In this document: positions 14,186 through 56,939 of the stretch, one piece after another
How the letters are laid out: every line of letters begins with the position of its first letter
Position numbering within the stretch: position 1 is the first letter of the stretch
Source of the DNA: Haliotis cracherodii
Lineage: Eukaryota
Direction: 5' to 3'
NCBI RefSeq assembly: GCF_022045235.1
Contig: NW_027266343.1
Location: forward strand, 56,792,001 to 56,856,000
Length of the DNA: 64,000 nt
Program-made: the position numbers and the translations under genes
Notes under the pieces: generated by a model
The model's input: the letters and a program-made list of their open reading frames with translations, nothing else
What the model was told of the DNA's origin: nothing
Database searches by the model: none

Positions 14186-17100
14186 CCCATCCTGGTGTGA
14201 ACCCACCATGATCCCACCTCATCCTGGTGTGGACCCACCATGATCCCACCTCATCCTGGTGTGAACCCACCTCATCCTCGTGTAAACCCACCACGATCTC
14301 ACCTCATGCCAGTGTGATTAAACCTCATCCTGGTGTGAACCAACCTTATCCGTATGTGAAACCTCGCAAACCTCATCCTGGTGTGATCCCACCTCATCCT
14401 GGTTTGAACCCACCTCATACTGGTGTGATCCCAGCTCATCCTGGTTTGAACCCACCTCATCCTGGTTTGAACCCACCATAATCTCACCTCATGCAAGTAT
14501 TATTAAACCTCATCCAGGTGTGAACCTACCTCATCCTGGTTTGAACCCACCTCATCCTGGTGTGATCCCACCTCATCCTGGTTTGAACCCACCTCATACT
14601 GGTGTGATCCCAGCTCATCCTGGTTTGAACCCACCATAATCTCACCTCATGCAAGTATGATTAAACCTCATCCAGGTGTGAACCTACCTCATCCTGGTGT
14701 GATCCCACCTCATCCTGGTTTGAACCCACCTCATCCTGGTGTGATCCCACCTCATCCTGGTTTGAACCCACCTCATACTGGTGTGATCCCACCTCATCCT
14801 GGTTTGAACCCACCTCATACTGGTGTGATCCCACCTCATCCTGGTTTGAACCCACCTCATCCTGGTGTGATCCCACCTCATCCTGGTTTGAACCCACCTC
14901 ATCCTGGTTTGAACCCACCATAATCTCACCTCATGCCAGTATGATTAAACCCCATCCCAGTGTGAACCCACCTCATCCCAGTGTGAACCCACCTCATCCC
15001 AATGTGAACCCACCTCATCCCAATGTGAACCCATCTCATCCCATTGTGAACTCAACTCATCCCAATGTGAACCCACCCCATCCCAGTGTGAACCCATCTC
15101 ATCCAAGTGTGAACTCAACTCATCCTGGTGTGAACCCACCTCATCCTGGTTTGAACCCACCTCATCCTGGCGTGATCGGGCATGATCCTGATGTGAACCC
15201 ACCTCAAACCAGTGTGATTCAACCTCATCCCAGTGTGATCCCAGATCATCCCAGTGTGATCCAACTTCATCCCTGTGTGATCCAACCTCATCTCAGTGTG
15301 ATCCAACTTCATCTCAGTGTGATCCAACCTCATCTCAGTGTGATCCAACCTCATCCCAGTGTGATCCAACCTCATCCCAGTGTGATCCAACCTCATCTCA
15401 GTGTGATCCAACCTCAACCCAGTGTGATCCCACCTCATCCCAGTGTGATCCAACCTCATCCCAGTGTGATCCCACCTCATCCCAGTGTGATCCAACCTCA
15501 TCTCAGTGGGATCCAACCTCATCTCTGTGTGATCCCACCACATCCCTGTGTGATCCAACCTCATCCCTGCGTGATCCCACCTCATCCCAGTGTGATAGCA
15601 CCTCATACCAGTGTGATCCGACCTCATCCCTGTGTGATCCAACCTCATCTCTGTCTGATCCCACTTCATCCCAGTGTGATCAAACCTCATCTCAGTGTGA
15701 TCCAACCTCATCCCAGTGTGATCCAACATCATCTCAGTGTGATCCAACCTCATCCCAGTGTGATCCAACATCATCTCTGTGTGATCCAACCTCATCCCAG
15801 TGTGATCCAACATCATCTCAGTGTGATCCAACATCATCCTAGTGTGATCCAATATCATCCCTGTGTGATCCAACCTCATCCCAGTGTGATCCAACCTCAT
15901 CCCAGTGTGATCCAACCTCATCCCAGTGTGATCCCACCTCATCTCAGTGTGATCCAACCTCATCCCAGTGTGATCCAACCTCATCTCAGTGTGATCCAAC
16001 CTCAACCCAGTGTGATCCCACCTCATCCCTGTGTGATCCCACCTCATCCCAGTGTGATCCAACATCATCTCAGTGTGATCCAGCCTCATCCCAGTGTGAT
16101 CCAACATCATCTCTGTGTGATCCAACCTCATCCCAGTGTGATCCAACATCATCTCTGTGTGATCCAACCTCATCCCAGTGTGATCCAACCTCATCCCAGT
16201 GTGATCCAACATCATCTCAGTGTGATCCAACCTCATCACAGTGTGATCCAACCTCATCCCAGTGTGATCCAACCTCATCCCAGTGTGATGCCACCTCATC
16301 CCAGTGTGATCCAACCTCATCCCAGTGTGATCCAACCTCATCCCAGTGTGATGCCACCTCATCCCAGTGTGATGCCACCTCATCCCTGTGTGTTCCAACC
16401 TCATCCCAGTGTGATCCAACCTCATCCCAGTGTGATGCCACCTTATCCCTGTGTGTTCCAACCTCATCCCAGTGTGATCCAACCTCATCCCAGTGTGATC
16501 CCACCTCATCCCTGTGTGATCCCACCTCATCCCTGTGTGATCCAACCTCATCCCAGTGTGATCCAACATCATCTCAGTGTGATCCAACCTCATCCCTGTG
16601 TGATCCAACCTCATCCCAGTGTGATCCCACCTCATCCCAGTGTGATGCCACCTCATCCCTGTGTGATCCAACCTCATCCCAGTGTGATCCCACCTCATCC
16701 CAGTGTGATGCCACCTCATCCCAGTGTGATCCAACCTCATCCCAGTGTGATCCCACCTCATCCCTGTGTGATCCCACCTTATCCCTGTGTTCCGACCTCT
16801 TCTCAGTGTGATCCCACATCATCCCAATGTGATCCAACCTCATCCCTGTGTGATCCCACCTCATCCCTGTGTGATCCCACCTCATCCCTGTGTGATCCCA
16901 CCTCATCCCAGTGTGATCCCACCTCTTCTCAGTGTGATCCAACCTCATCCCTGTGTGATCCAACCTCATCCCTGTGTGATCCAATATCATCCCAGTGTGA
17001 TTCAACCTCATCTCAATGTGATCCAACCTCATCCCTGTGTGATCCCACCTCATCCAAGTGTGATATCCCACATAATCCCAGTGTGATCCAACCTCATCTC

Positions 17101-20100
17101 AGTGTGATCCAACCTCATCCCAGTGTGATGCCACCTCATCCCAGTGTGATGCCACCTTATCCCTGTGTGTTCCAACCTCATCCCAGTGTGATCCAACCTC
17201 ATCCCAGTGTGATGCCACCTCATCCCAGTGTGATCCAACCTCATCCCAGTGTGATGCCACCTCATCCCAGTGTGTTCCAACCTCATCCCAGTGTGATCCA
17301 ACCTGATCCCAGTGTGATGCCACCTCATCCCAGTGTGATGCCACCTCATCCCAGTGTGATCCAACCTCATCCCAGTGTGATCCAACCTCATCCCAGTGTG
17401 ATGCCACCTCATCCCAGTGTGATGCCACCTCATCCCTGTGTGATGCCACCTCATCCCTGTGTGATCCAACCTCATCCCAGTGTGATCCCACCTCATCCCT
17501 GTGTGTTCCAACCTCATCCCAGTGTGATGCCACCTCATCCCAGTGTGATGCCACCTCATCCCTGTGTGATGCCACCTCATCCCTGTGTGATCCAACCTCA
17601 TCCCAGTGTGATCCAACCTCATCCCAGTGTGATCCAACCTCATCCCAGTGTGATCCCACCTCATCCCTGTGTGATGCCACCTCATCCCTGTGTGTTCCAA
17701 CCTCATCCCAGTGTGATCCCACCTCATCCCTGTGTGATGCCACCTCATCCCTGTGTGTTCCAACCTCATCCCAGTGTGATCCCACCTCATCCCAGTGTGA
17801 TGCCACCTCATCCCTGTGTGTTCCAACCTCATCCCAGTGTGATCCAACCTCATCCCAGTGTGATGCCACCTCATCCCAGTGTGATGCCACCTTATCCCTG
17901 TGTGTTCCAACCTCATCCCAGTGTGATCCAACCTCATCCCAGTGTGATGCCACCTCATCCCAGTGTGATCCAACCTCATCCCAGTGTGATGCCACCTCAT
18001 CCCTGTGTGTTCCAACCTCATCTCAGTGTGATCCAACCTCATCCCTGTGTGATCCAACCTCATCCCAGTGTGATCCCACCTCATCCCTGTGTGATGCCAC
18101 CTCATCCCTGTGTGATCCAACCTCATCCCAGTGTGATCCCACCTCATCCCTGTGTGATGCCACCTCATCCCTGTGTGATGCCACCTCATCCCTGTGTGTT
18201 CCAACCTCATCCCAGTGTGATCCAACCTCATCCCAGTGTGATCCCACCTCATCCCTGTGTGATGCCACCTCATCCCTGTGTGATCCAACCTCATCCCAGT
18301 GTGATCCCACCTCATCCCAGTGTGATCCAACCTCATCCCAGTGTGATGCCACCTCATCCCTGTGTGATCCAACCTCATCCCAGTGTGATCCAACCTCATC
18401 CCAGTGTGATCCAACCTCATCCCAGTGTGATCCAACCTCATCTCAGTGTGATCCAACCTCAACCCAGTGTGATCCCACCTCATCCCAGTGTGATCCAACC
18501 TCATCCCAGTGTGATCCCACCTCATCCCAGTGTGATCCAACCTCATCTCAGTGGGATCCAACCTCATCTCTGTGTGATCCCACCACATCCCTGTGTGATC
18601 CAACCTCATCCCTGCGTGATCCCACCTCATCCCAGTGTGATAGCACCTCATACCAGTGTGATCCGACCTCATCCCTGTGTGATCCAACCTCATCTCTGTC
18701 TGATCCCACTTCATCCCAGTGTGATCAAACCTCATCTCAGTGTGATCCAACCTCATCCCAGTGTGATCCAACATCATCTCAGTGTGATCCAACCTCATCC
18801 CAGTGTGATCCAACATCATCTCTGTGTGATCCAACCTCATCCCAGTGTGATCCAACATCATCTCAGTGTGATCCAACATCATCCTAGTGTGATCCAATAT
18901 CATCCCTGTGTGATCCAACCTCATCCCAGTGTGATCCAACCTCATCCCAGTGTGATCCAACCTCATCCCAGTGTGATCCCACCTCATCTCAGTGTGATCC
19001 AACCTCATCCCAGTGTGATCCAACCTCATCTCAGTGTGATCCAACCTCAACCCAGTGTGATCCCACCTCATCCCTGTGTGATCCCACCTCATCCCAGTGT
19101 GATCCAACATCATCTCAGTGTGATCCAACCTCATCCCAGTGTGATCCAACATCATCTCTGTGTGATCCAACCTCATCCCAGTGTGATCCAACATCATCTC
19201 TGTGTGATCCAACCTCATCCAAGTGTGATCCAACCTCATCCCAGTGTGATCCAACATCATCTCAGTGTGATCCAACCTCATCACAGTGTGATCCAACCTC
19301 ATCCCAGTGTGATCCAACCTCATCCCAGTGTGATGCCACCTCATCCCAGTGTGATCCAACCTCATCTCAGTGTGATCCAACCTCATCCCAGTGTGATGCC
19401 ACCTCATCCCAGTGTGATGCCACCTTATCCCTGTGTGTTCCAACCTCATCCCAGTGTGATCCAACCTCATCCCAGTGTGATGCCACCTTATCCCTGTGTG
19501 TTCCAACCTCATCCCAGTGTGATCCAACCTCATCCCAGTGTGATCCCACCTCATCCCTGTGTGATCCCACCTCATCCCTGTGTGATCCAACCTCATCCCA
19601 GTGTGATCCAACATCATCTCAGTGTGATCCAACCTCATCCCTGTGTGATCCAACCTCATCCCAGTGTGATCCCACCTCATCCCAGTGTGATGCCACCTCA
19701 TCCCTGTGTGATCCAACCTCATCCCAGTGTGATCCCACCTCATCCCAGTGTGATGCCACCTCATCCCAGTGTGATCCAACCTCATCCCTGTGTGATCCCA
19801 CCTTATCCCTGTGTTCCGACCTCTTCTCAGTGTGATCCCACATCATCCCAATGTGATCCAACCTCATCCCTGTGTGATCCCACCTCATCCCTGTGTGATC
19901 CCACCTCATCCCTGTGTGATCCCACCTCATCCCAGTGTGATCCCACCTCTTCTCAGTGTGATCCAACCTCATCCCTGTGTGATCCAACCTCATCCCTGTG
20001 TGATCCAATATCATCCCAGTGTGATTCAACCTCATCTCAATGTGATCCAACCTCATCCCTGTGTGATCCCACCTCATCCAAGTGTGATATCCCACATAAT

Positions 20101-23100
20101 CCCAGTGTGATCCAACCTCATCTCAGTGTGATCCAACCTCATCCCAGTGTGATGCCACCTCATCCCAGTGTGATGCCACCTTATCCCTGTGTGTTCCAAC
20201 CTCATCCCAGTGTGATCCAACCTCATCCCAGTGTGATGCCACCTCATCCCAGTGTGATCCAACCTCATCCCAGTGTGATGCCACCTCATCCCAGTGTGTT
20301 CCAACCTCATCCCAGTGTGATCCAACCTGATCCCAGTGTGATGCCACCTCATCCCAGTGTGATGCCACCTCATCCCAGTGTGATCCAACCTCATCCCAGT
20401 GTGATCCAACCTCATCCCAGTGTGATCCAACCTCATCCCAGTGTGATGCCACCTCATCCCTGTGTGATGCCACCTCATCCCTGTGTGATCCAACCTCATC
20501 CCAGTGTGATCCCACCTCATCCCTGTGTGTTCCAACCTCATCCCAGTGTGATGCCACCTCATCCCAGTGTGATGCCACCTCATCCCTGTGTGATGCCACC
20601 TCATCCCTGTGTGATCCAACCTCATCCCAGTGTGATCCAACCTCATCCCAGTGTGATCCAACCTCATCCCAGTGTGATCCCACCTCATCCCTGTGTGATG
20701 CCACCTCATCCCTGTGTGTTCCAACCTCATCCCAGTGTGATCCAACCTCATCCCTGTGTGATGCCACCTCATCCCTGTGTGTTCCAACCTCATCCCAGTG
20801 TGATCCCACCTCATCCCAGTGTGATGCCACCTCATCCCTGTGTGTTCCAACCTCATCCCAGTGTGATCCAACCTCATCCCAGTGTGATGCCACCTCATCC
20901 CAGTGTGATGCCACCTTATCCCTGTGTGTTCCAACCTCATCCCAGTGTGATCCAACCTCATCCCAGTGTGATGCCACCTCATCCCAGTGTGATCCAACCT
21001 CATCCCAGTGTGATGCCACCTCATCCCTGTGTGTTCCAACCTCATCTCAGTGTGATCCAACCTCATCCCTGTGTGATCCAACCTCATCCCAGTGTGATCC
21101 CACCTCATCCCTGTGTGATGCCACCTCATCCCTGTGTGATCCAACCTCATCCCAGTGTGATCCCACCTCATCCCTGTGTGATGCCACCTCATCCCTGTGT
21201 GATGCCACCTCATCCCTGTGTGTTCCAACCTCATCCCAGTGTGATCCAACCTCATCCCAGTGTGATCCCACCTCATCCCTGTGTGATGCCACCTCATCCC
21301 TGTGTGATCCAACCTCATCCCAGTGTGATCCCACCTCATCCCAGTGTGATCCAACCTCATCCCAGTGTGATGCCACCTCATCCCTGTGTGATCCAACCTC
21401 ATCCCAGTGTGATGCCACCTCATCCCAGTGTGATCCAACCTCATCCCAGTGTGATGCCACCTCATCCCTGTGTGATCCAACCTCATCCCAGTGTGATCCC
21501 ACCTCATCCCAGTGTGATCCAACCTCATCCCAGTGTGATCCCACCTCATCCCTGTGTGATGCCACCTCATCCCTGTGTGATCCAACCTCATCCCAGTGTG
21601 ATCCCACCTCATCCCAGTGTGATCCAACCTCATCCCAGTGTGATCCAACATCATCTCAGTGTGATCCAACCTCATCCCAGTGTGATCCCACCTCATCCCT
21701 GTGTGTTCCAACCTCATCCCAGTGTGATCCAACCTCATCCCAGTGTGATGCCACCTCATCCCAGTGTGATCCAACCTCATCCCAGTGTGATCCAACCTCA
21801 TCCCAGTGTGATGCCACCTCATCCCAGTGTGATGCCACCTTATCCCTGTGTGTTCCAACCTCATCCCAGTGTGATCCCACCTCATCCCTGTGTGTTCCAA
21901 CCTCATCCCAGTGTGATCCAACCTCATCCCAGTGTGATGCCACCTCATCCCAGTGTGATCCAACCTCATCCCAGTGTGATCCAACCTCATCCCAGTGTGA
22001 TGCCACCTCATCCCAGTGTGATCCCACCTCATCCCTGTGTGATCCAACCTCATCCCAGTGTGATCCAACCTCATCCCAGTGTGATCCAACCTCATCCCAG
22101 TGTGATCCCACCTCATCCCTGTGTGATCCAACCTCATCCCAGTGTGATCCCACCTCATCCCTGTGTGTTCCAACCTCATCCCAGTGTGATCCAACCTCAT
22201 CCCAGTGTGATGCCACCTCATCCCAGTGTGATCCAACCTCATCCCAGTGTGATCCCACCTCATCCCTGTGTGTTCCAACCTCATCCCAGTGTGATCCCAC
22301 CTCATCCCAGTGTGATCCCACCTCATCCCAGTGTGATGCCACCTTATCCCTGTGTGATCCAACCTCATCCCAGTGTGATCCCACCTCATCCCTGTGTGAT
22401 CCCACCTCATCCCAGTGTGATCCCACCTCATCCCAGTGTGATGCCACCTTATCCCTGTGTGATCCAACCTCATCCCAGTGTGATCCAACCTCATCCCAGT
22501 GTGATCCAACCTCATCCCAGTGTGATGCCACCTCATCCCAGTGTGTTCCAACCTCATCCCAGTGTGATGCCACCTTATCCCTGTGTGTTCCAACCTCATC
22601 CCAGTGTGATCCAACCTCATCCCAGTGTGATGCCACCTCATCCCAGTGTGATCCAACCTCATCCCAGTGTGATGCCACCTCATCCCTGTGTGATCCAACC
22701 TCATCCCAGTGTGATCCCACCTCATCCCAGTGTGATGCCACCTCATCCCAGTGTGATCCAACCTCATCCCAGTGTGATCCCACCTCATCCCTGTGTGATC
22801 CCACCTTATCCCTGTGTTCCGACCTCTTCTCAGTGTGATCCCACATCATCCCAATGTGATCCAACCTCATCCCAGTGTGATGCCACCTCATCCCTGTGTG
22901 ATCCAACCTCATCCCAGTGTGATCCCACCTCATCCCAGTGTGATGCCACCTCATCCCAGTGTGATCCAACCTCATCCCAGTGTGATCCCACCTCATCCCT
23001 GTGTGATCCCACCTTATCCCTGTGTTCCGACCTCTTCTCAGTGTGATCCCACCTCATCCCAGTGTGATGCCACCTCATCCCTGTGTGATCTTACCTCATC

Positions 23101-41557: not shown

Positions 41558-41713
41558 ATGGAGGTCGCTGGAGTACTGAAAAGCGCGCTGACTTCAAAAC
41601 CGGCTGCATATGTTATTGGTGGAACAACTACGCTAGCTGCAGCATATGGTCTTTATAAGTTGTGGCTGTATATGAGCGAAGAAGATGAATATTTTGAGAA
41701 ATTACACACGAGT
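41558..41713 (+). CDS. ARL10: ARL10-like (ARL9/10) small GTPase, exon 1 (N-terminal TM segment)
   Basis: aacATGg start; hydrophobic AAYVIGGTTTLAAAYGLYKLWLY then acidic EEDEY; donor AGT|gtgagt, phase 0. Confidence 0.75.
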
Positions 41714-43642: not shown

Positions 43643-43817
43643 GAAGACCAAAGTGAGCGCCGAGTGTTGATCATCGGCCTTGATGGAGCAGGCAAAACCC
43701 GCTTTGCTCGATGTTTTTGTAAGGGCCGGCGGCGCCTCAGCACAACAGAGGAGACCACGATTGGCTTCTATGTCAACTCTGTGATGCTGGGATCAATCTA
43801 CCTCAACATGTGGGATG
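43643..43817 (+). CDS. ARL10: ARL10-like GTPase exon 2 (P-loop, switch I)
   Basis: RVLIIGLDGAGKT, TTIGF, LNMWD; ccag| acceptor and G|gtaaga donor. Confidence 0.9.
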
Positions 43818-44886: not shown

Positions 44887-45068
44887 TGGGAGGTTCCGAG
44901 ATGTGCCGGACCTACTGGAAGGAGTTCCTGCTGGACTTGGATGGAATCTGTTACGTTGTGGACTCGTCCGATGCATCCCGGCTAGTTGAGTCGAGACGGG
45001 AGCTGCACAGCTTCCTCACCCAGAAGGGAACAGAGAACATCCCTCTCATCATTGTGGCCACCAAACAG
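44887..45068 (+). CDS. ARL10: ARL10-like GTPase exon 3 (G3, G4)
   Basis: (V)GGSEMCRTYW, YVVDSSD, PLIIVATKQ; ttgcag| acceptor and CAG|gtagtg donor. Confidence 0.9.
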
Positions 45069-46114: not shown

Positions 46115-49100
46115 CCCTTCACAGTTCCAGCAGTCTGTATTCATCCCCTTTTCAGCTCCAACTGCCTATACTCATCCCCTTTTCAGCTCTAGCAGTCTGT
46201 ATTCATCCCCTTTTCAGGTCCAACTGCCTATACTCATCCCCTTTCAGCTCTAGCAGCCTATACTCATCCCCTTTCAACTCTAGCAGCCTATACTCATCCC
46301 CTTTTCAGCTCTAGCAGCCTATACTCATCCCCTTTCAGCTCTAGCAGCCTATACTCATCCCCTTTCAACTCTAGCAGCCTATACTCATCCCCTTTTCAGC
46401 TCTAGCAGCCTATACTCATCCCCTTTCAGCTCTAGCAGCCTATACTCATCCCCTTTCAGCTCTAGCAGCCTATACTCATCCCCATTCAGCTTTAGCAGCC
46501 TATACTCATCCCCTTTCAGCTCTAGCAACCTATACTCATCCCCTTTTCAGCTCTAGCAGCCTATACTCATCCCCTTTCAGCTCTAGCAGCCTATACTCAT
46601 CCCCTTTCAACTCTAGCAGCCTATACTCATCCCCTTTTCAGCTCTAGCAGCCTATACTCATCCCCTTTCAGCTCTAGCAGCCTATACTCATCCCCTTTCA
46701 GCTCTAGCAGCCTATACTCATCCTCATTCAGCTCTAGCAGCCTATACTCATCCCCTTTCAGCTCTAGCAACCTATACTCATCCCCATTCAGCTTTAGCAG
46801 CCTATACTCATCCCCTTTCAACTCTAGCAGCCTATACTCATCCCCTTTTCAGCTCTAGCAGCCTATACTCATCCCCTTTCAGCTCTAGCAGCCTATACTC
46901 ATCCCCTTTCAACTCTAGCAGCCTATACTCATCCCCTTTTCAGCTCTAGCAGCCTATACTCATCCCCTTTCAGCTCTAGCAGCCTATACTCATCCCCTTT
47001 CAGCTCTAGCAGCCTATACTCATCCCCATTCAGCTTTAGCAGCCTATACTCATCCCCTTTCAGCTCTAGCAACCTATACTCATCCCCTTTCAACTCTAGC
47101 AGCCTATACTCATCCCCCTTTCAGCTCTAGCAGTCTATACTCATCCCCCTTTCAGCTCTTGCAGCCTATACTCATCCCCTTTCAGCTCTAGCAGCCTAAA
47201 CTCATCCCCTTTCAGCTCTAGCAGCCTAAACTCATCCCCTTTCAACTCTAGCAGCCTAAACTCATCCCCTTTCAACTCTAGCAGCCTATACTCATCCCCT
47301 TTCAACTCTAGCAGCCTATACTCATCCCCTTTCAACTCTAGCAGCCTATACTCATCCCCTTTCAACTCTAGCAGCCTATACTTATCCCCTTTCAGCTCTA
47401 GCAGCCTATACCCATCCCCTTTCAGCTCTAGCAACCTATACTCATCCCCTTTCAGCTCTAGCAACCTATACTCATCCCTTTTCAGCTCTAGCAGCCTATA
47501 CTCATCCCCTTTCAACTCTAGCAGCCTAAACTCATCCCCTTTCAACTCTAGCAGCCTATACTCATCCCCTTTCAACTCTAGCAGCCTATACTCATCCCCT
47601 TTCAACTCTAGCAGCCTATACTCATCCCCTTTCAACTCTAGCAGCCTATACTTATCCCCTTTCAGCTCTAGCAGCCTAAACTCATCCCCTTTCAGCTCTA
47701 GCAGCCTAAACTCATCCCCTTTCAACTCTAGCAGCCTAAACTCATCCCCTTTCAACTCTAGCAGCCTATACTCATCCCCTTTCAACTCTAGCAGCCTATA
47801 CTCATCCCCTTTCAACTCTAGCAGCCTATACTCATCCCCTTTCAACTCTAGCAGCCTATACTTATCCCCTTTCAGCTCTAGCAACCTATACTCATCCCCT
47901 TTCAGCTCTAGCAACCTATACTCATCCCCTTTCAACTCTAGCAGCCTATACTCATCCCCTTTCAACTCTAGCAGCCTATACTCATCCCCTTTCAACTCTA
48001 GCAGCCTATACCCATCCCCTTTCAGCTCTAGCAACCTATACCCATCCCCTTTCAGCTCTAGCAACCTATACTCATCCCCTTTTCAGCTCTAGCAGCCTAT
48101 ACTCATCCCCTTTCAACTCTAGCAGCCTATACCCATCCCCTTTCAGCTCTAGCAACCTATACCCATCCCCTTTCAGCTCTAGCAACCTATACTCATCCCC
48201 TTTTCAGCTCTAGCAGCCTATACTCATCCCCTTTCAACTCTAGCAGCCTATACCCATCCCCTTTCAGCTCTAGCAACCTATACCCATCCCCTTTCAGCTC
48301 TAGCAGCCTATACTCATCCCCCTTTCAGCTCTAGCAGTCTATACCCATCCCCTTTCAGCTCTAGCAACCTATACCCATCCCCTTTCAGCTCTAGCAACCT
48401 ATACTCATCCCCTTTCAACTCTAGCAACCTATACTCATCCCCCTTTCAGCTCTAGCAGTCTATACTCATCCCCCTTTCAGCTCTAGCAGTCTATACTCAT
48501 CCCCCTTTCAGCTCTAGCAACCTATACCCATCCCCTTTCAGCTCTAGCAGCCTATACCCATCCCCTTTCAGCTCTAGCAACCTATACCCATCCCCTTTCA
48601 GCTCTAGCAGCCTATACTCATCCCCTTTCAGCTCTAGCAGCCTATACTCATCCCCTTTCAACTCTAGCAGCCTATACTCATCCCCTTTCAACTCTAGCAG
48701 CCTATACTCATCCCCTTTCAACTCTAGCAGCCTATACTCATCCCCTTTCAACTCTAGCAGCCTATACCCATCCCCTTTCAGCTCTAGCAGCCTATACTCA
48801 TCCCCTTTCAACTCTAGCAGCCTATACTCATCCCCTTTCAACTCTAGCAGCCTATACCCATCCCCTTTCAGCTCTAGCAGCCTATACTCATCCCCTTTCA
48901 ACTCTAGCAGCCTATACCCATCCCCTTTCAGCTCTAGCAGCCTATACTCATCCCCTTTCAGCTCTAGCAGCCTATACCCATCCCCTTTCAGCTCTAGCAG
49001 CCTATACCCATCCCCTTTCAACTCTAGCAGCCTATACTCATCCCCTTTCAACTCTAGCAGCCTATACTCATCCCCTTTCAACTCTAGCAGCCTATACTCA

Positions 49101-49238
49101 TCCCCTTTCAGCTCTAGCAGCCTATACTCATCCCCTTTCAACTCTAGCAGCCTATACTCATCCCCTTTCAGCTCTAGCAGCCTATACCCATCCCCTTTCA
49201 GCTCTAGCAACCTATACTCATCCCTTTTCAGCTCTAGC
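46115..49238. repeat. 30(-31)-bp minisatellite CTATACTCATCCCCTTTCAGCTCTAGCAGC, about 100 units, in ARL10 intron 3
   Basis: Direct periodicity. Confidence 0.97.
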
Positions 49239-49239
49239 T

Positions 49240-49790
49240 GTGGAGTTCGTCCATGCTTCCGTTAGTCTGTACATCCATCTGTCTGTCCATCCTTCCAAGG
49301 GCACAAGTTTTCTCAAAAACTATTTTAAATTAGAGAATTGAAGTTTACACACTGATATTACTGGTCATGATCTTAAATGAGTTCAATTTTTTACAGAGTT
49401 ATGGCCCTTGCTCCGAGCTTTTAAACTAATTACGTAGTGTCTGCAATTGGGACAAGTTTTCTCAGAAACTTCTGAAGTTATATGAATGATACTTTCCATG
49501 CTTATCTAAGAGATACTTAGACTGAGTTTGAAAATTGGTGCCAGTAATTATTTTTTACAGAGTTATGCTCCTTGCTTCATGCTTTTCAACTTTGTGCCTA
49601 GTGTCTGCAATTGGGATAAGTTTTGTCAGAAAGCACTGACGCTACATGAATGAAAGTTTGCATGCTTATCTATGAGATACTGTGTTCCAAAATTGGTCCT
49701 GTAAAATTATTTTTTGCAGAGTTACTTCCCTTGCTACATGTATTTTAGATTGTGAGGACAAGCCACTGTCAGTTAGGCGGGACATGAAAA
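49240..49790 (-). mobile_element. HINE-like non-autonomous element remnant
   Basis: TCCA/GTCT microsatellite followed by three core repeats containing AAGTTTTCTCAGAAA..CAGAGTTATG. Confidence 0.5.
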
Positions 49791-49802
49791 GACACAGTAA
49801 AG

Positions 49803-52010
49803 CTGTGTTCATGTTGACTACAGTGTGAAGCCCCACTCACTCACTGTGTGTTCATGTTGACTACAGTGTCAAGCCCCACTCACTCACTGTGTTCATGTTG
49901 ACTACAGTGTGAAGCCCCACTCACTCACTCTGTGTTCATGTTGACTACTGTGTGAAGCCCCACTCACTCACTCTGTGTTCATGTTGACTACTGTGTGAAG
50001 CCCCACTCACTCACTGTGTTCATGTTGACTACAGTGTCAAGCCCCACTCACTCACTCACTCTGTGTTCATGTTGACTACAGTGTCAAGCCCCACTCACTC
50101 ACTCTGTGTTCATGTTGACTACTGTGTGAAGCCCCACTCACTCACTGTGTTCATGTTGACTACAGTGTCAAGCCCCACTCACTCACTCTGTGTTCATGTT
50201 GACTACTGTGTGAAGCCCCACTCACTCACTCTGTGTTCATGTTGACTACAGTGTGAAGCCCCACTCACTCACTGTGTTCATGTTGACTACTGTGTGAAGC
50301 CCCACTCACTCACTGTGTTCATGTTGACTACAGTGTGAAGCCCCACTCACTCACTCTGTGTTCATGTTGACTACTGTGTGAAGCCCCACTCACTCACTCT
50401 GTTAATGTTGACTACAGTGTCAAGCCCCACTCACTCACTCTGTGTTCATGTTGACTACAGTGTCAAGCCCCACTCACTCACTCTGTGTTCATGTTGACTA
50501 CAGTGTCAAGCCCCACTCACTCACTGTGTTCATGTTGACTACAGTGTCAAGCCCCACTCACTCACTCTGTGTTCATGTTGACTACTGTGTCAAGCCCCAC
50601 TCACTCACTGTGTTCATGTTGACTACAGTGTGAAGCCCCACTCACTCACTGTGTTCATGTTGACTACAGTGTGAAGCCCCACTCACTCACTGTGTGTTCA
50701 TGTTGACTACAGTGTGAAGCCCCACTCACTCACTGTGTTCATGTTGACTACAGTGTGAAGCCCCACTCACTCACTGTGTTCATGTTGACTACAGTGTGAA
50801 GCCCCACTCACTCACTGTGTTCATGTTGACTACTGTGTGAAGCCCCACTCACTCACTGTGTTCATGTTGACTACTGTGTCAAGCCCCACTCACTCACTGT
50901 GTTCATGTTGACTACAGTGTGAAGCCCCACTCACTCACTGTGTTCATGTTGACTACAGTGTGAAGCCCCACTCACTCACTGTGTTCATGTTGACTACAGT
51001 GTGAAGCCCCACTCACTCACTGTGTGTTCATGTTGACTACAGTGTGAAGCCCCACTCACTCACTGTGTTCATGTTGACTACAGTGTGAAGCCCCACTCAC
51101 TCACTGTGTTCATGTTGACTACAGTGTGAAGCCCCACTCACTCACTGTGTTCATGTTGACTACTGTGTGAAGCCCCACTCACTCACTGTGTTCATGTTGA
51201 CTACAGTGTGAAGCCCCACTCACTCACTGTGTTCATGTTGACTACTGTGTGAAGCCCCACTCACTCACTCTGTGTTCATGTTGACTACTGTGTCAAGCCC
51301 CACTCACTCACTGTGTTCATGTTGACTACAGTGTGAAGCCCCACTCACTCACTGTGTTCATGTTGACTACAGTGTCAAGCCCCACTCACTCACTGTGTTC
51401 ATGTTGACTACTGTGTGAAGCCCCACTCACTCACTGTGTTCATGTTGACTACAGCGTCAAGCCCCACTCACTCACTGTGTTCATGTTGACTACAGTGTCA
51501 AGCCCCACTCACTCACTCTGTGTTCATGTTGACTACAGTGTCAAGCCCCACTCACTCACTCTGTGTTCATGTTGACTACAGTGTCAAGCCCCACTCACTC
51601 ACTCTGTGTTCATGTTGATTACAGTGTGAAGCCCCACTCACTCACTCACTGTGTTCATGTTGACTACAGTGTCAAGCCCCACTCACTCACTCACTCTGTT
51701 AATGTTGACTACAGTGTCAAGCCCCACTCACTCACTCTGTGTTCATGTTGACTACAGTGTCAAGCCCCACTCACTCACTCTGTGTTCATGTTGACTACAG
51801 TGTGAAGCCCCACTCACTCACTCACTGTGTTCATGTTGACTACAGTGTCAAGCCCCACTCACTCACTCACTGTGTTCATGTTGACTACAGTGTCAAGCCC
51901 CACTCACTCACTCTGTGTTCATGTTGACTACAGTGTCAAGCCCCACTCACTCACTCACTGTGTTCATGTTGACTACAGTGTCAAGCCCCACTCACTCACT
52001 CACTCACTCA
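49803..52010. repeat. 40-44-bp minisatellite GTGTTCATGTTGACTACAGTGT(G/C)AAGCCC(CACT)n, about 50 units, in ARL10 intron 3
   Basis: Direct periodicity; unit length varies through the CACT/CT tract. Confidence 0.95.
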
Positions 52011-52308
52011 CAGTCTGTTCTCCTTTCAGGACAAGCCACTATCAATCAAGTCAGACTTGGTGCACACCTGTGTTCATGTTGACCACAGTGTGAAGCCCCA
52101 CTCACTCACTCACTCACTCACTCACTCACTCACTCACAGTCTGTTCTCCTTTCAGGACAAGCCACTATCAATCAAGCCAGACTTGGTGCACACCTGTGTT
52201 CATGTTGACCAGAGTGTCATCCCACTCACTCACTCACTCACTCACTCACTCACTCACTCAGTGTCAAGCGCCTGTTCATTCACTCACAATAGTCTGTTCT
52301 CGTTGCAG

Positions 52309-52494
52309 GACAAGCCACTATCAATCACGCCAGACTTGGTGTACAGCTACATGCAAGTGGACAACTTTGCCAAGACCCGTCCAATCCACCTTGTCTCAGT
52401 CCAAGCACCAGACCGTGGCCAGCGCAAGGGATTCATGGAAACATATCGTATCTTTGAGAGTCTTCAGAAGAGGCGGAGACATAAGTCAGCTTGA
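52309..52494 (+). CDS. ARL10: ARL10-like GTPase exon 4 (last coding exon)
   Basis: Completes TKQ|D; DKPLSITPDLVYSYMQV..RPIHLVSVQA..GFMETYRIFESL*; four exons give 232 aa. Confidence 0.8.
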   Translation, partial: DKPLSITPDLVYSYMQVDNFAKTRPIHLVSVQAPDRGQRKGFMETYRIFESLQKRRRHKSA

Positions 52495-53304
52495 TCGTAT
52501 CGCTTTGACAAAAACAAGCACATACAGTTTATCCCATAGCTCTTTGACTCCATGAACAGTTTATCTCCTGTTGTCTTGTAAGCATGGTGCTTTTATTTAG
52601 TATGTTTAGTATACATTTAAATTTATATCCTGTTTATCTTTATAAGATGCAGTCTTTATGATAGTATTAACATTTTACATTTTAGATAATATTTACAAAA
52701 ATATTTCTGAATCCTTTTATGTGGATAATTTGCAATATTTATGGTTTTGCACCACTGCAAGTCACGTCAATGTATTTAGCAATTATTTATTTGAATACTT
52801 ATCATATTTTCAAAGATGTTTTTAATCTACATATTGGTTGTGATATAACATGGAGCTTTTGACATGTTTACACATACATCTGAAACGTGTGTTTACACAT
52901 ACAGCCTGGTCAATATTTGCTATCCAGTCGTACAGAAACTCAGTGCTGTAGTCTACAAACAGTATTTGTTGTACAACATTGTTTACCTATATTTCAAGGT
53001 GATGTGCTGTGTTTTATTATTTTTATGTTTTGTTATGTTTCTTGCCTTTTATTGCCTTTTGTTGGAAAAAACCTCTTGCAGATCCAGAGAGAAAATTCAG
53101 GGGTGCTCACGCCAACTTGTGATGCATACTTAAACATTTGTACATTCAGGAATTTTATGAAAGATCGGTTGTACAAAATGTAAACATGTAACAATGCTAT
53201 CACAAACTCATTCGTGAAATAATTTCAACAAAATTACATGATTATAAATGAACATGAATTGTTCAATCACAATTTGCACTTAAACCCGGGTACCTACTCA
53301 TGTG

Positions 53305-55050
53305 TAGTGAAAGAGGGGATCTACATGGTCCAGATCCTTCCCTATATCTAGTGAAAGAGGGGATCTACATGGTCCAGATCCTTCCCTATATCTAATGAAA
53401 GAGGGGATCTACATGGTCCAGATCCTTCCCTATATCTAGTGAAAGCGGGGATCTACATGGTCTAGGTCCTTCCCTATATCTAGAGAAAGAGGGGATCTAC
53501 ATGGTCCAGGTCCCTCCCTATATGTAGTGAAAGAGGGGATCTACATGGTCTAGGTCCCTCCCTATATCTAGTGAAAGAGGGGATCTACATGGTCTAGGTC
53601 CCTCCCTATATCTAGTGAAAGAGGGGATCTACATGGTCCAGGTCCCTCCTTATATCTAGTGAAAGAGGGGATCTACATGGTCCAGATCCCTCCCTATATG
53701 TAGTGAAAGCGGGGATCTACATGGTCTAGGTCCTTCCCTATATCTAGAGAAAGAGGGGATCTACATGGTCCAGATCCTTCCCTATATCTAGTGAAAGAGG
53801 GGATCTACATGGTCCAGATCCATCCCTATATGTAGTGAAAGAGGGGATCTACATGGTCCAGATCCATCCCTATATGTAGTGAAAGAGGGGATCTACATGG
53901 TCCAGGTCCCTCCCTACATGTAGTGAAAGAGGGGATCTACATGGTCCAGGTCCTTCCCTATATCTAGTGAAAGAGGGGATCTACATGGTCCAGATCCATC
54001 CCTATATGTAGTGAAAGAGGGGATCTACATGGTCCAGATCCATCCCTATATGTAGTGAAAGAGGGGATCTACATGGTCCAGGTCCCTCCCTACATGTAGT
54101 GAAAGAGGGGATCTACATGGTCCAGGTCCTTCCCTATATCTAGTGAAAGAGGGGATCTACATGGTCCAGATCCTTCCCTATATCTAATGAAAGAGGGGAT
54201 CTACATGGTCCAGATCCTTCCCTATATCTAGTGAAAGCGGGGATCTACATGGTCTAGGTCCTTCCCTATATCTAGAGAAAGAGGGGATCTACATGGTCCA
54301 GGTCCCTCCCTATATGTAGTGAAAGAGGGGATCTACATGGTCTAGGTCCCTCCCTATATCTAGTGAAAGAGGGGATCTACATGGTCTAGGTCCCTCCCTA
54401 TATCTAGTGAAAGAGGGGATCTACATGGTCCAGGTCCCTCCTTATATCTAGTGAAAGAGGGGATCTACATGGTCCAGATCCCTCCCTATATGTAGTGAAA
54501 GCGGGGATCTACATGGTCTAGGTCCTTCCCTATATCTAGAGAAAGAGGGGATCTACATGGTCCAGATCCTTCCCTATATCTAGTGAAAGAGGGGATCTAC
54601 ATGGTCCAGATCCATCCCTATATGTAGTGAAAGAGGGGATCTACATGGTCCAGATCCATCCCTATATGTAGTGAAAGAGGGGATCTACATGGTCCAGGTC
54701 CCTCCCTACATGTAGTGAAAGAGGGGATCTACATGGTCCAGGTCCTTCCCTATATCTAGTGAAAGAGGGGATCTACATGGTCCAGATCCATCCCTATATG
54801 TAGTGAAAGAGGGGATCTACATGGTCCAGATCCATCCCTATATGTAGTGAAAGAGGGGATCTACATGGTCCAGGTCCCTCCCTACATGTAGTGAAAGAGG
54901 GGATCTACATGGTCCAGGTCCTTCCCTATATCTAGTGAAAGAGGGGATCTACATGGTCCAGATCCATCCCTATATGTAGTGAAAGAGGGGATCTACATGG
55001 TCCAGACACCCCCCATGTGTAATTGGACAAGGGATCTACATGGTCCAGAT
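53305..55050. repeat. 44-bp minisatellite TAGTGAAAGAGGGGATCTACATGGTCCAGATCCTTCCCTATATC, about 39 units, with a 792-bp higher-order duplication
   Basis: Direct periodicity; the rare TCTAATGAAA variant recurs at 53391 and 54183. Confidence 0.97.
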
Positions 55051-56939
55051 CCTGCTGTGTGTGGTGTTTGTGTAAGTGAAGCAGATGGATCTGGGTGTTT
55101 GTGAAGTGTATGCAAGAGAGTGGTTAATGATTAAACCTTATGCCACAATAACTATACCAAAATTGCTCCCCAAAGTACCGGGCAATACATTGTTGAGGTA
55201 CATTTGTCAGTTTTATATGAACCATATCATAGTCAGCTTGTGTACTTAACAAACCGTATTACAGTGTTTCCTGACTTTATCAGGAGAAAAGAAAGAAGGG
55301 AACATCAGAACTGAAAAAGATTTACAGTTGTTAGTACAGTGAATATCAGTCACAGTGAAACATTAGTATCGAGAGATGGGTATTAGAGGTTTGAAGTGTA
55401 TCACAATATAAGACCTATGTGAAATAACCCTATATACCGAGCATTTAAACATATTATTGTGATATGTATCCTGGAAAAATTGAACCTCAATATTCTGATA
55501 TATCGGTAATACGTCTCACCCTTATTTGTATCAGGTTTGCACTCTGTCAAACACATGCTTGTCGTTCCCTTATGTCTTACATAATTATTCTGTATACACA
55601 ACAGAAGCATTGTCCTGTGAAAATCAATGATCAGACAATCATCCTATGGTGTTGTTACAGCATCCATGGCCTTGTGGGCAAAGCTTGTACCTGGTAGGTT
55701 GGTGGTTCAATCACCGGCCTCGTCATTCCGCAAGACGTTAAAATATGTTACACACACACATAAGTGCATGGCTGTCGCTTTATACCGTAAATGGGATAAT
55801 CTTGAACGTGTCATTAAACCCCATTTCCCACCTCATTGTTACTAGTTTATGCACAGTTTGTTACATGAGCAGCATTTATCCTGTTTTTACACTGTTATTG
55901 CATCAGCGTCCGTTGTGAATGTCACCAGTTTGTTACACTGTGATTCTGTCCAAAGGTGGACGTTGCTCCACTAGGACTTGTAGCATATAATGTAATAGTA
56001 TTTCAACATGTAAGAATAGGCATTTGTTTGGGTATCATTGTTAAAGGTCAGTAAGTTCACCACTTTTTTTTATACTTATCAAAACCTTGATGATTTTGAT
56101 TTACTGCAGTATTGTTCTGCTGTTCGTGAGTTGTGTCTAGCGCCGCTTTTAACAGTTTTCCAGTCATATCACGGCGTTGTTCTGCTGTTATAAGTGTATG
56201 TTTGTTTCCTTGTCTGTAAGTAAACCTTTTACCCATCTGGAACATTTGTTTTAAAAAAATGTATATGCCAAATGCCATTATGTAGAAACATTTGAAAAGC
56301 TCAAATGCATCAATTAATGCAGTCTACACGTCATCACTAGCATGTTGATAAGCTGAAAATAAAGATATTTGTTTAAAGTTTACTACCTTTATTTATTTTT
56401 CTAACAGGAATATTAGGACTGCAGGTCAAGTTGATCTTAGATTTGCCAACAGTCTGGGGTTTGCGAGTTTTGTTTAATGTGTCTTCGAGATGTTTGAACA
56501 GTATTCCAGTTACATCACGGTGTGTCAGTTTGATGTGGGAGCAAAGCCAGAAGTGATGCAGGACAGGGATGTGTACCACTTTGGGGAAACAAACAAGCAC
56601 AGATATGTCTCTGACAAACCAGGGAACATAATCAGGGCAAATCTGGGATTCAAACCCAAGGTCATAGATTTGTGGCAGGCATAAATGATACAACACATGA
56701 CACAGAGATTTGTAACACCTTATACAGCTTGTCTACCACTGATTGCCTCTCACAACCATCCACTTAGACTGTTGCATGATGTTCCAGCTATCATCCCCGG
56801 TAGGCTGTCCCAGATCACATCCCACAACCACCTGGGGCAAGGGTGGTCTGTTTTTATAAGGTCCCACAATTTGCTGTGCAGAGTTGTGTCCCTTGGGTTC
56901 ACCAGAGACCAAAGATTGTGGGCTTGAATCATGGTTCAC

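What the first reader, a model, noticed from the sequence alone, without database searches (positions are those of the whole stretch)
52010..52350. Two duplicated, in-frame copies of the ARL10 exon-4 splice acceptor
The boundary AGTCTGTTCTC(C/G)TT(T/G)CAG|GACAAGCCACTATCAATCA..CAGACTTGGTG occurs three times, with exon starts at 52030, 52156 and 52309. The offsets (126 and 153 nt) are both multiples of 3 with no stop codon. Using an upstream copy would keep TKQD intact and insert 51 or 93 aa of DKPLSIKPDLVHTCVHVD..(THSL)n into the GTPase. The decoys have a purer pyrimidine tract than the authentic site. This is either nascent alternative splicing born of tandem duplication or a case of strong splice-site discrimination.
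Basis: seen in the sequence. Interest (0 to 1): 0.7.

Follow-up and report, generated by a model that had tools for sequence, protein, structure and literature searches.

The report
Abalone splice-acceptor "mirage" in ARL9/10-like gene
The border between the last intron and last coding exon of an abalone small-GTPase gene has been copied twice recently and once long ago, yet the transcripts seen in related abalones join to the real, last copy, so the extra copies are likely harmless repeats of a kind already known from lancelets as "mirages".

Summary
In detail: exon-4 starts at 52030, 52156 and 52309, offsets 126 and 153, open frame. A fourth, older copy sits at 49757, at the head of a 52-copy 41-base array; these four are the only matches in the genome. 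DNA contigs of a relative from two studies hold a decoy copy, so it is no assembly artefact. In 6 of 6 RNA-like runs laid (relatives, six studies), contigs join exon 3 to 52309 (5 with 31+ letters on both sides). Four Haliotis annotations give only the 232-aa protein. Minor use is not excluded: contigs drop rare forms, and no own-species RNA was seen. The frame is fragile: one or two (CACT) units more or fewer break it. This is a small 'mirage' like amphioxus BflGb6, and works like human CBS 844ins68. The scan noted such repeats before in at least seven other invertebrate and fish windows. Whether the 41-base unit came from the old exon copy or from a dispersed-repeat end is a tie. Nascent alternative splicing is not supported.

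The parts
41558..41713 (+). Coding exon 1 (ATG; hydrophobic N-terminal helix)
   Evidence: Spliced model = P0001, 232 aa; helix 14-39 predicted
43643..43817 (+). Coding exon 2 (G1 GLDGAGKT to G3 WD)
44887..45068 (+). Coding exon 3, ends in TKQ; donor 45068|GT, phase 0
   Evidence: Pfam Arf E=8.6e-15; its end is the loose end of all spliced contigs
46122..49238 (+). 30-base array in intron 3, 103 copies, with 103 acceptor-like sites; no match to the coding sequence above shuffles
49737..49802 (+). Old, decayed copy of the exon-4 start (exon-like part begins 49757; GAG in place of CAG; 8 extra letters after +30; stop in frame after 23 codons)
   Evidence: 23/30 identical to the authentic start; one of only 4 genome hits; 52/78 with the first array unit once the 8 letters are left out
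49803..52000 (+). 41-base minisatellite, about 52 copies, no acceptor in the unit; resembles both exon 4 (+38..+78) and the end of a dispersed repeat
   Evidence: core pattern only here, 49 of 49 hits; 25/41 to exon 4, 27/41 to repeat majority
52012..52137 (+). Decoy 1: acceptor (exon start 52030), about 38 nt of exon 4, one array-type unit, (CACT)n; youngest copy
   Evidence: 73/74 to decoy 2
52138..52290 (+). Decoy 2: acceptor (exon start 52156), about 38 nt of exon 4, one array-type unit, (CACT)9.5 at 52223-52260
   Evidence: identical over 52132-52210 in DNA contig of run X20; same type of contig in X16
52291..52308 (+). Authentic acceptor of intron 3
   Evidence: used by all spliced contigs seen
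52309..52494 (+). Coding part of terminal exon 4 (D of TKQD to stop); the transcript runs on at least to 53290
   Evidence: 100% to P0001 residues 172-232

Best explanation
The intron-3/exon-4 border of this ARL9/10-like gene has been duplicated in tandem three times (an old decayed copy at 49757 and two young copies at 52030 and 52156), the spliced transcripts seen in related abalones use the last copy (52309), and the extra copies are likely neutral 'mirage' repeats that are skipped. Shown: the copies, their identities, the presence of a decoy in a relative's DNA, and the exon 3 to 52309 join. Inferred history: (1) an ancient duplication left the copy at 49757; (2) the 41-base array grew behind it; (3) unequal exchange or slippage between exon 4 (near +38) and an array unit, which it resembles in register, made decoy 2, before the exon changed AAG (K) to ACG (T) and before the window's lineage split from organism E; (4) a 126-nt tandem duplication made decoy 1. 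Inferred reason for the choice: the acceptor sequence does not decide, the context does. Only the last copy is followed by the full exon 4; each decoy keeps about 38 exon letters and then runs into UCAC-rich repeat, and its branch-point zone is pure (UCAC)n, the motif of Nova/Pasilla proteins, which silence when bound there. Loss of exon enhancers plus UCAC silencing is my most likely mechanism (about 0.6); it is untested.
For: Junction: contigs of X1, X6, X15 and X11, X12, X8, 6 of 6 RNA-like runs laid, six studies, carry the end of exon 3 as loose end at 52306 (CAG shared) and go on with the authentic exon; 5 of 6 have 31+ loose letters, X8 has 27. X11 does so at summed word depth near 377. 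Proteins: NCBI entries of H. cracherodii, rufescens, rubra and asinina are all 232 aa; no longer form among 6 hits from 347 candidates of 127-406 aa. Real DNA: 2 of 2 DNA-like runs laid (X16, X20; organism E, two studies) hold a decoy contig; X20 is identical over 79 letters. Age: rubra and asinina read DKPLAMKPDLV, the decoys keep this K, cracherodii and rufescens have T. Frame fragility: plus or minus 1 or 2 CACT units break the frame, plus or minus 3 keep it. YCAY in the first 100 nt: 11 and 11 in decoys, 3 in the authentic exon; in the 60 nt upstream 6, 10 and 5. Class: PMC3087553 and PMC3902484 passages; CBS 844ins68; Nova map passages.
Against: All RNA evidence is from contigs of relatives (about 1% different in the 3' UTR), which drop rare forms; no run was shown to be the window's own species. 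That organisms A-D carry the decoys is inferred (from E and from the K/T order), not seen. The decoys have better pyrimidine tracts (12/13 vs 10/13) and 5-9 branch-point-like motifs. The exon is terminal, so a longer in-frame mRNA would have no premature stop. The authentic acceptor also has YCAY upstream (5 in 60 nt, decoy 1 has 6), which weakens the silencing idea for the upstream side. Decoy 2 has 0 differences in 79 nt against organism E where about 1.5 are expected (P=0.22): not significant, but no sign of fast decay either.
Confidence: 0.8

Rival explanations
1. Minor or tissue-limited alternative splicing: the upstream acceptors are used at low level, or where a UCAC-binding repressor is scarce, giving 283- or 325-aa proteins with a low-complexity insert after G4.
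For: Intact acceptors with 12/13 pyrimidines and branch-point-like motifs; open frame and terminal exon; the insert would fall in the loop between strand 164-169 and helix 179-186 of the predicted fold.
Against: No positive sign: all spliced contigs seen use 52309; no longer protein on record; the frame depends on a 4-base microsatellite.
Confidence: 0.14
2. Assembly artefact at the end of a 2.2-kb tandem array.
For: Position beside a long array; decoy 1 and decoy 2 are 73/74 identical; only one decoy-type contig was laid in each DNA run, so decoy 1 itself has no outside support.
Against: Decoy contigs in DNA of organism E from two studies; decoys differ from the authentic copy at 5 of 58 places, one of them the ancestral K codon; the two decoys have different downstream units.
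Confidence: 0.03
3. Selected regulatory decoy: the copies trap U2AF/U2 or pair with RNA to tune splicing of intron 3.
For: Decoy 2 is shared and unchanged over 79 nt between two lineages.
Against: That sameness is expected by chance with P=0.22; local folds give the same pairing over the AG in all three copies (AG unpaired 0.16-0.21 and 0.01-0.08); the older copy decayed.
Confidence: 0.03
4. Side question, origin of the 41-base unit. (a) It is exon-born: the amplified 3' half of the old exon-4 copy (about 0.5). (b) It is the decayed end of a dispersed (ACTC)n-tailed repeat that lay before the acceptor and was duplicated with it (about 0.4). (c) Other (0.1). The confidence given is for (a).
For: (a) Decoy 1 +33..+77 matches exon 4 at 27/45 without gaps, 0 of 200,000 shuffles; +40..+77 22/38, p=4e-5; the old exon copy runs straight into the first unit (52/78); core 21/32 to the exon vs 18/32 to the repeat majority; the repeat's body is not found upstream; the unit core occurs only here.
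Against: (b) Unit vs majority of 30 repeat copies picked by their upstream part: 27/41 with a 9/9 tail, against 25/41 with a 4/9 tail for the exon; core shuffle p=2e-4. The repeat has 27,491 pattern hits. Against the whole 699-nt coding sequence, 1 of 60 shuffled units also reached 25/41. Mismatches by codon position are 7/5/6, so no trace of coding constraint.
Confidence: 0.5

Closest known systems
Amphioxus 'mirage' repeats, above all globin BflGb6 (PMC3087553, passages read; PMC3902484, passage read)
   Same: Tandem copies of the 3' end of an intron plus the 5' part of the next exon; BflGb6 units 150-160 bp, 3 or 6 copies, 81-100% alike; many keep the AG; normal splicing reported. Here 126-153 nt, 2 young copies.
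   Different: A mollusc; terminal exon; offsets happen to be in frame; copies of three ages, with an acceptor-less 52-copy minisatellite between the old and the young copies.
Human CBS c.844_845ins68 (PMC2630376, introduction and passages read; PMC1802585, passage read)
   Same: Duplicated intron/exon junction gives two near-identical acceptors; the distal one is strongly favoured and normal mRNA is made.
   Different: 68 bp, one extra copy, internal exon; G runs between the sites promote the distal choice there (PMC1802585), whereas here the sequence between is UCAC-rich and the mechanism is untested.
Human F7 intron-7 37-bp VNTR (PMC1557585, abstract and outline read)
   Same: A repeat that copies a splice border; the extra sites are functional in principle but silent.
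   Different: Donor side; every unit carries the site.
ARL9/ARL10 group of Arf-like GTPases
   Same: Arf domain, G1/G3/G4 motifs, N-terminal hydrophobic helix; nearest named Atlas clusters are ARL9 (0.96) and ARL10 (0.95).
   Different: Only 6 proteins at E<=1e-20, all molluscan; NCBI names differ between species; one-to-one orthology with ARL10 not tested.

Membership tests
Mirage repeats (PMC3087553) | Tandem repeats that span an exon-intron boundary | tested here: met
   Three copies at spacing 126 and 153
Mirage repeats (PMC3087553) | Unit = 3' end of intron + 5' part of exon, upstream of the authentic exon | tested here: met
   53/58 over -18..+39
Mirage repeats (PMC3087553) | Many, not all, units keep the AG signal | tested here: met
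   Young copies keep CAG; the old copy has GAG and 8/13 pyrimidines; 41-base units have no such acceptor
Mirage repeats (PMC3087553) | Regular splicing is not disturbed | tested here: met
   For the major form in relatives: 6 of 6 RNA-like runs join exon 3 to 52309; 232-aa annotations. Minor forms and own-species RNA not testable with contigs.
Mirage repeats (PMC3087553) | Copy-number instability between haplotypes | tested here: inconclusive
   One decoy-type contig per DNA run of organism E at 1.3-1.4 times flank depth against two copies in the window; contigs give no copy number
Arf/Arl GTPase family | Pfam Arf domain with G1, G3, G4 motifs | tested here: met
   Exon 3 alone E=8.6e-15; GLDGAGKT, WDVGG, TKQD conserved in alignment; best PDB hits ARL2/ARL3 at E about 4e-23
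ARL10 (orthologue) | Groups with vertebrate ARL10 in a tree | not tested
   No vertebrate ARL10 sequence was fetched; Atlas features point to ARL9 and ARL10 alike
Alternative 3' splice-site event | Junction reads to more than one acceptor | tested here: inconclusive
   Only the 52309 join was seen; contigs cannot show absence of rare forms
Nova/Pasilla-silenced splice site | YCAY cluster at branch point or in exon, bound by the protein, with de-repression on knock-down | not testable with these tools
   Clusters counted; binding and knock-down untested; an abalone Nova gene was not searched for

The most novel reading that the evidence does not exclude
The locus is a three-age series of one splice border: an ancient exon-4 copy seeded a 52-unit exon-born minisatellite, which later recombined back into the exon and made intact in-frame acceptors. 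Its UCAC repeats let Nova/Pasilla hold them silent, and in tissues with little of that protein they yield NMD-proof 283/325-aa GTPases, with the (CACT)n length setting the frame animal by animal.
Probability: 0.06. Interest if true: 0.6.

Novelty: new member of a known kind. Interest (0 to 1): 0.2.

Why it matters
Modest. It extends mirage repeats to abalones and gives a compact natural test of why an acceptor with a better pyrimidine tract loses to the authentic one in a terminal exon, where NMD cannot hide mis-splicing. The copies of three ages show the decay of such repeats. If the array unit proved exon-born, it would be a neat case of a coding sequence seeding an intronic minisatellite; that point is undecided.

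Tried and rejected
No RNA holder was on record as RNA in the run search; runs are RNA by guess and by their spliced contigs. Nothing was laid on decoy 2 in X11, X12, X8, and 51990-52267 was skipped as repeat: neither is counted as evidence. RNA structure as discriminator: same hairpin over all three acceptors, rejected. Coding constraint on the old copy: mismatches 7/5/6 by codon position, none seen. The piece just before the authentic acceptor as an exon remnant: shuffle p=0.40, fits array units instead. 30-mer and 44-mer units as exon-derived: within shuffle range. One search gave 24/29 for unit vs repeat, but those 20 copies were picked by a pattern built on the unit; replaced by the unbiased test. 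My first reading that the unit is clearly exon-born was lowered to a tie. Close paralogue as source: best other locus 43% over exon 3. Pfam hit of the extended exon (apicomplexan microprotein, E=0.024, below cut-off) is chance. The extended protein could not be folded, as no record gives it. Paper searches listed nothing on this abalone gene; PMC1914870 is not held. No supplements were read; those of PMC3087553 (alignments of BflGb6 mirages) may bear on the comparison.

Full report
Observation. The three copies are there, with exon starts at 52030, 52156 and 52309. The frame from 52030 is open to the stop at 52492-52494, so splicing of donor 45068 to a decoy would give 283 or 325 aa instead of 232. 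The decoys have 12/13 pyrimidines at -16..-4, against 10/13 for the authentic site and for the acceptors of exons 2 and 3. A degenerate 22-letter pattern has 4 hits in the 1.18-Gb genome, all in this intron.

The gene. Four coding exons (41558-41713, 43643-43817, 44887-45068, 52309-52494) give a protein identical to an NCBI entry named for Haliotis cracherodii. It is an Arf-like GTPase whose nearest named Atlas clusters are ARL9 and ARL10. 'ARL10' is thus approximate; no tree was made. In the predicted fold (mean pLDDT 74), TKQD (169-172) ends strand 164-169 and helix 179-186 follows, so an insert would sit in that loop.

Is it real DNA? I laid 8 of 22 listed runs. Both DNA-like runs (X16, X20; organism E, two studies; 18-19 other letters in about 1,000) hold a contig of the decoy type. 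X20 is identical to decoy 2 over 52132-52210. Only one such contig was laid per run, so decoy 1 has no outside support and may be limited to this lineage or variable. H. rubra and H. asinina read DKPLAMKPDLV; the decoys keep that K, while the authentic exon of cracherodii and rufescens has T. By parsimony the decoy is older than that change (inferred).

Which acceptor is used? In all 6 RNA-like runs laid (organisms A-D, six studies), contigs carry the end of exon 3 and go on with the authentic exon 4 from 52309. Five have 31 or more letters on the exon-3 side; X8 has 27. X11 has two such contigs at a summed depth near 377. Both end at 52358 and the next contig starts at 52329, which implies that they differ at 52328 and both continue in the authentic exon (the letter was not shown). 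Protein records of four Haliotis species are all 232 aa, and no longer form came up among 347 candidates of 127-406 aa. Limits: contigs drop rare forms, none of the runs was shown to be the window's species, and the decoys were seen directly only in E. So the major form is settled and a minor form is not excluded.

The in-frame argument is weak. Two offsets are both multiples of 3 one time in nine. The would-be insert holds a (CACT)9.5 microsatellite; one or two units more or fewer break the frame. The repeat has no stop in any frame, so the open frame costs little.

How the choice is likely made (inferred). The acceptors themselves favour the decoys, and local folds do not differ. What differs is context. 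A decoy keeps about 38 exon letters and then runs into repeat: 11 YCAY motifs in the first 100 nt against 3 in the authentic exon, and its branch zone is pure (UCAC)n. Nova and Pasilla bind YCAY clusters and silence when bound near branch points, splice sites or in exons (PMC3165201, passages). That exon sequence next to a duplicated site helps decide its use is recalled from classic duplicated-splice-site work, not read here. Against the silencing idea, the authentic site also has 5 YCAY in the 60 nt before it (decoy 1 has 6). Acceptor-like sites are cheap in this intron: 110 pass a simple rule, 103 of them in the 30-mer array.

The 41-base array. It fills 49803-52000 with about 52 copies, and its core occurs only here (49 of 49 hits). 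It matches exon 4 in the register set by the decoys (27/45, 0 of 200,000 shuffles), and the old exon copy runs into the first unit (52/78). It matches equally well the end of a dispersed repeat with 27,491 pattern hits: 27/41 to the majority of 30 copies picked by their upstream part, against 25/41 to the exon; core 18/32 against 21/32, tail 9/9 against 4/9. One likeness is probably chance, and I cannot say which (0.5 exon-born, 0.4 repeat end). Either way the likeness offers a register for the unequal exchange that likely made decoy 2.

Comparison with what is known. Tandem copies of an intron end plus exon start are described in amphioxus as mirages. BflGb6 has 3 or 6 units of 150-160 bp, many with AG, and splicing is reported as normal (PMC3087553, passages; PMC3902484, passage). 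Human CBS 844ins68 duplicates an intron/exon junction and the distal site is strongly favoured (PMC2630376, introduction; PMC1802585, passage). The F7 VNTR is the donor-side case (PMC1557585, abstract). The lead to the mirage papers came from earlier notes of this scan, which list similar repeats in other genomes; I read the passages myself. No note lay near this place. Searches listed no paper on this abalone locus.

Verdict. A real, small mirage in a mollusc, most likely silent and neutral: new member of a known kind, interest 0.2.

Noticed in passing
window 46122-49238 (+): The 30-base array in the same intron ends each unit in a pyrimidine run plus CAG, giving 103 acceptor-like sites; it shows no link to the coding sequence.
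   Followed up: partly
window 53305-55053 (+): A 44-base array of about 40 copies begins just past the part covered by spliced contigs (to 53290); the first ATTAAA/AATAAA after the stop is at 55130, so the 3' UTR may run into or through the array.
   Followed up: no
window 24310 (-), also 3767, 5506, 26753, 56509 (-), 57562, 63544 (+); L034-L063: Ends of abundant dispersed repeats, several with (ACTC)n tails; one family has 27,491 pattern hits genome-wide. Class not determined.
   Followed up: partly
window about 15200-21400: A long tandem array of roughly 21-base units showed up in the scan output; not examined.
   Followed up: no
run X11 on window 52306-53290: Two alleles, one about 4-9% different in parts of the 3' UTR and differing at 52328, the K/T codon position (inferred); a hybrid or pooled sample is possible.
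   Followed up: partly
window 49386-49681: A 164-base unit in 1.8 copies lies just before the old exon copy; it looks like part of a dispersed repeat (recalled, not tested).
   Followed up: no
L008 (G000:C12:54809842-54810021, -): Closest other Arf-like locus to exon 3, 43% identical; might be the other ARL9/ARL10-type gene.
   Followed up: no
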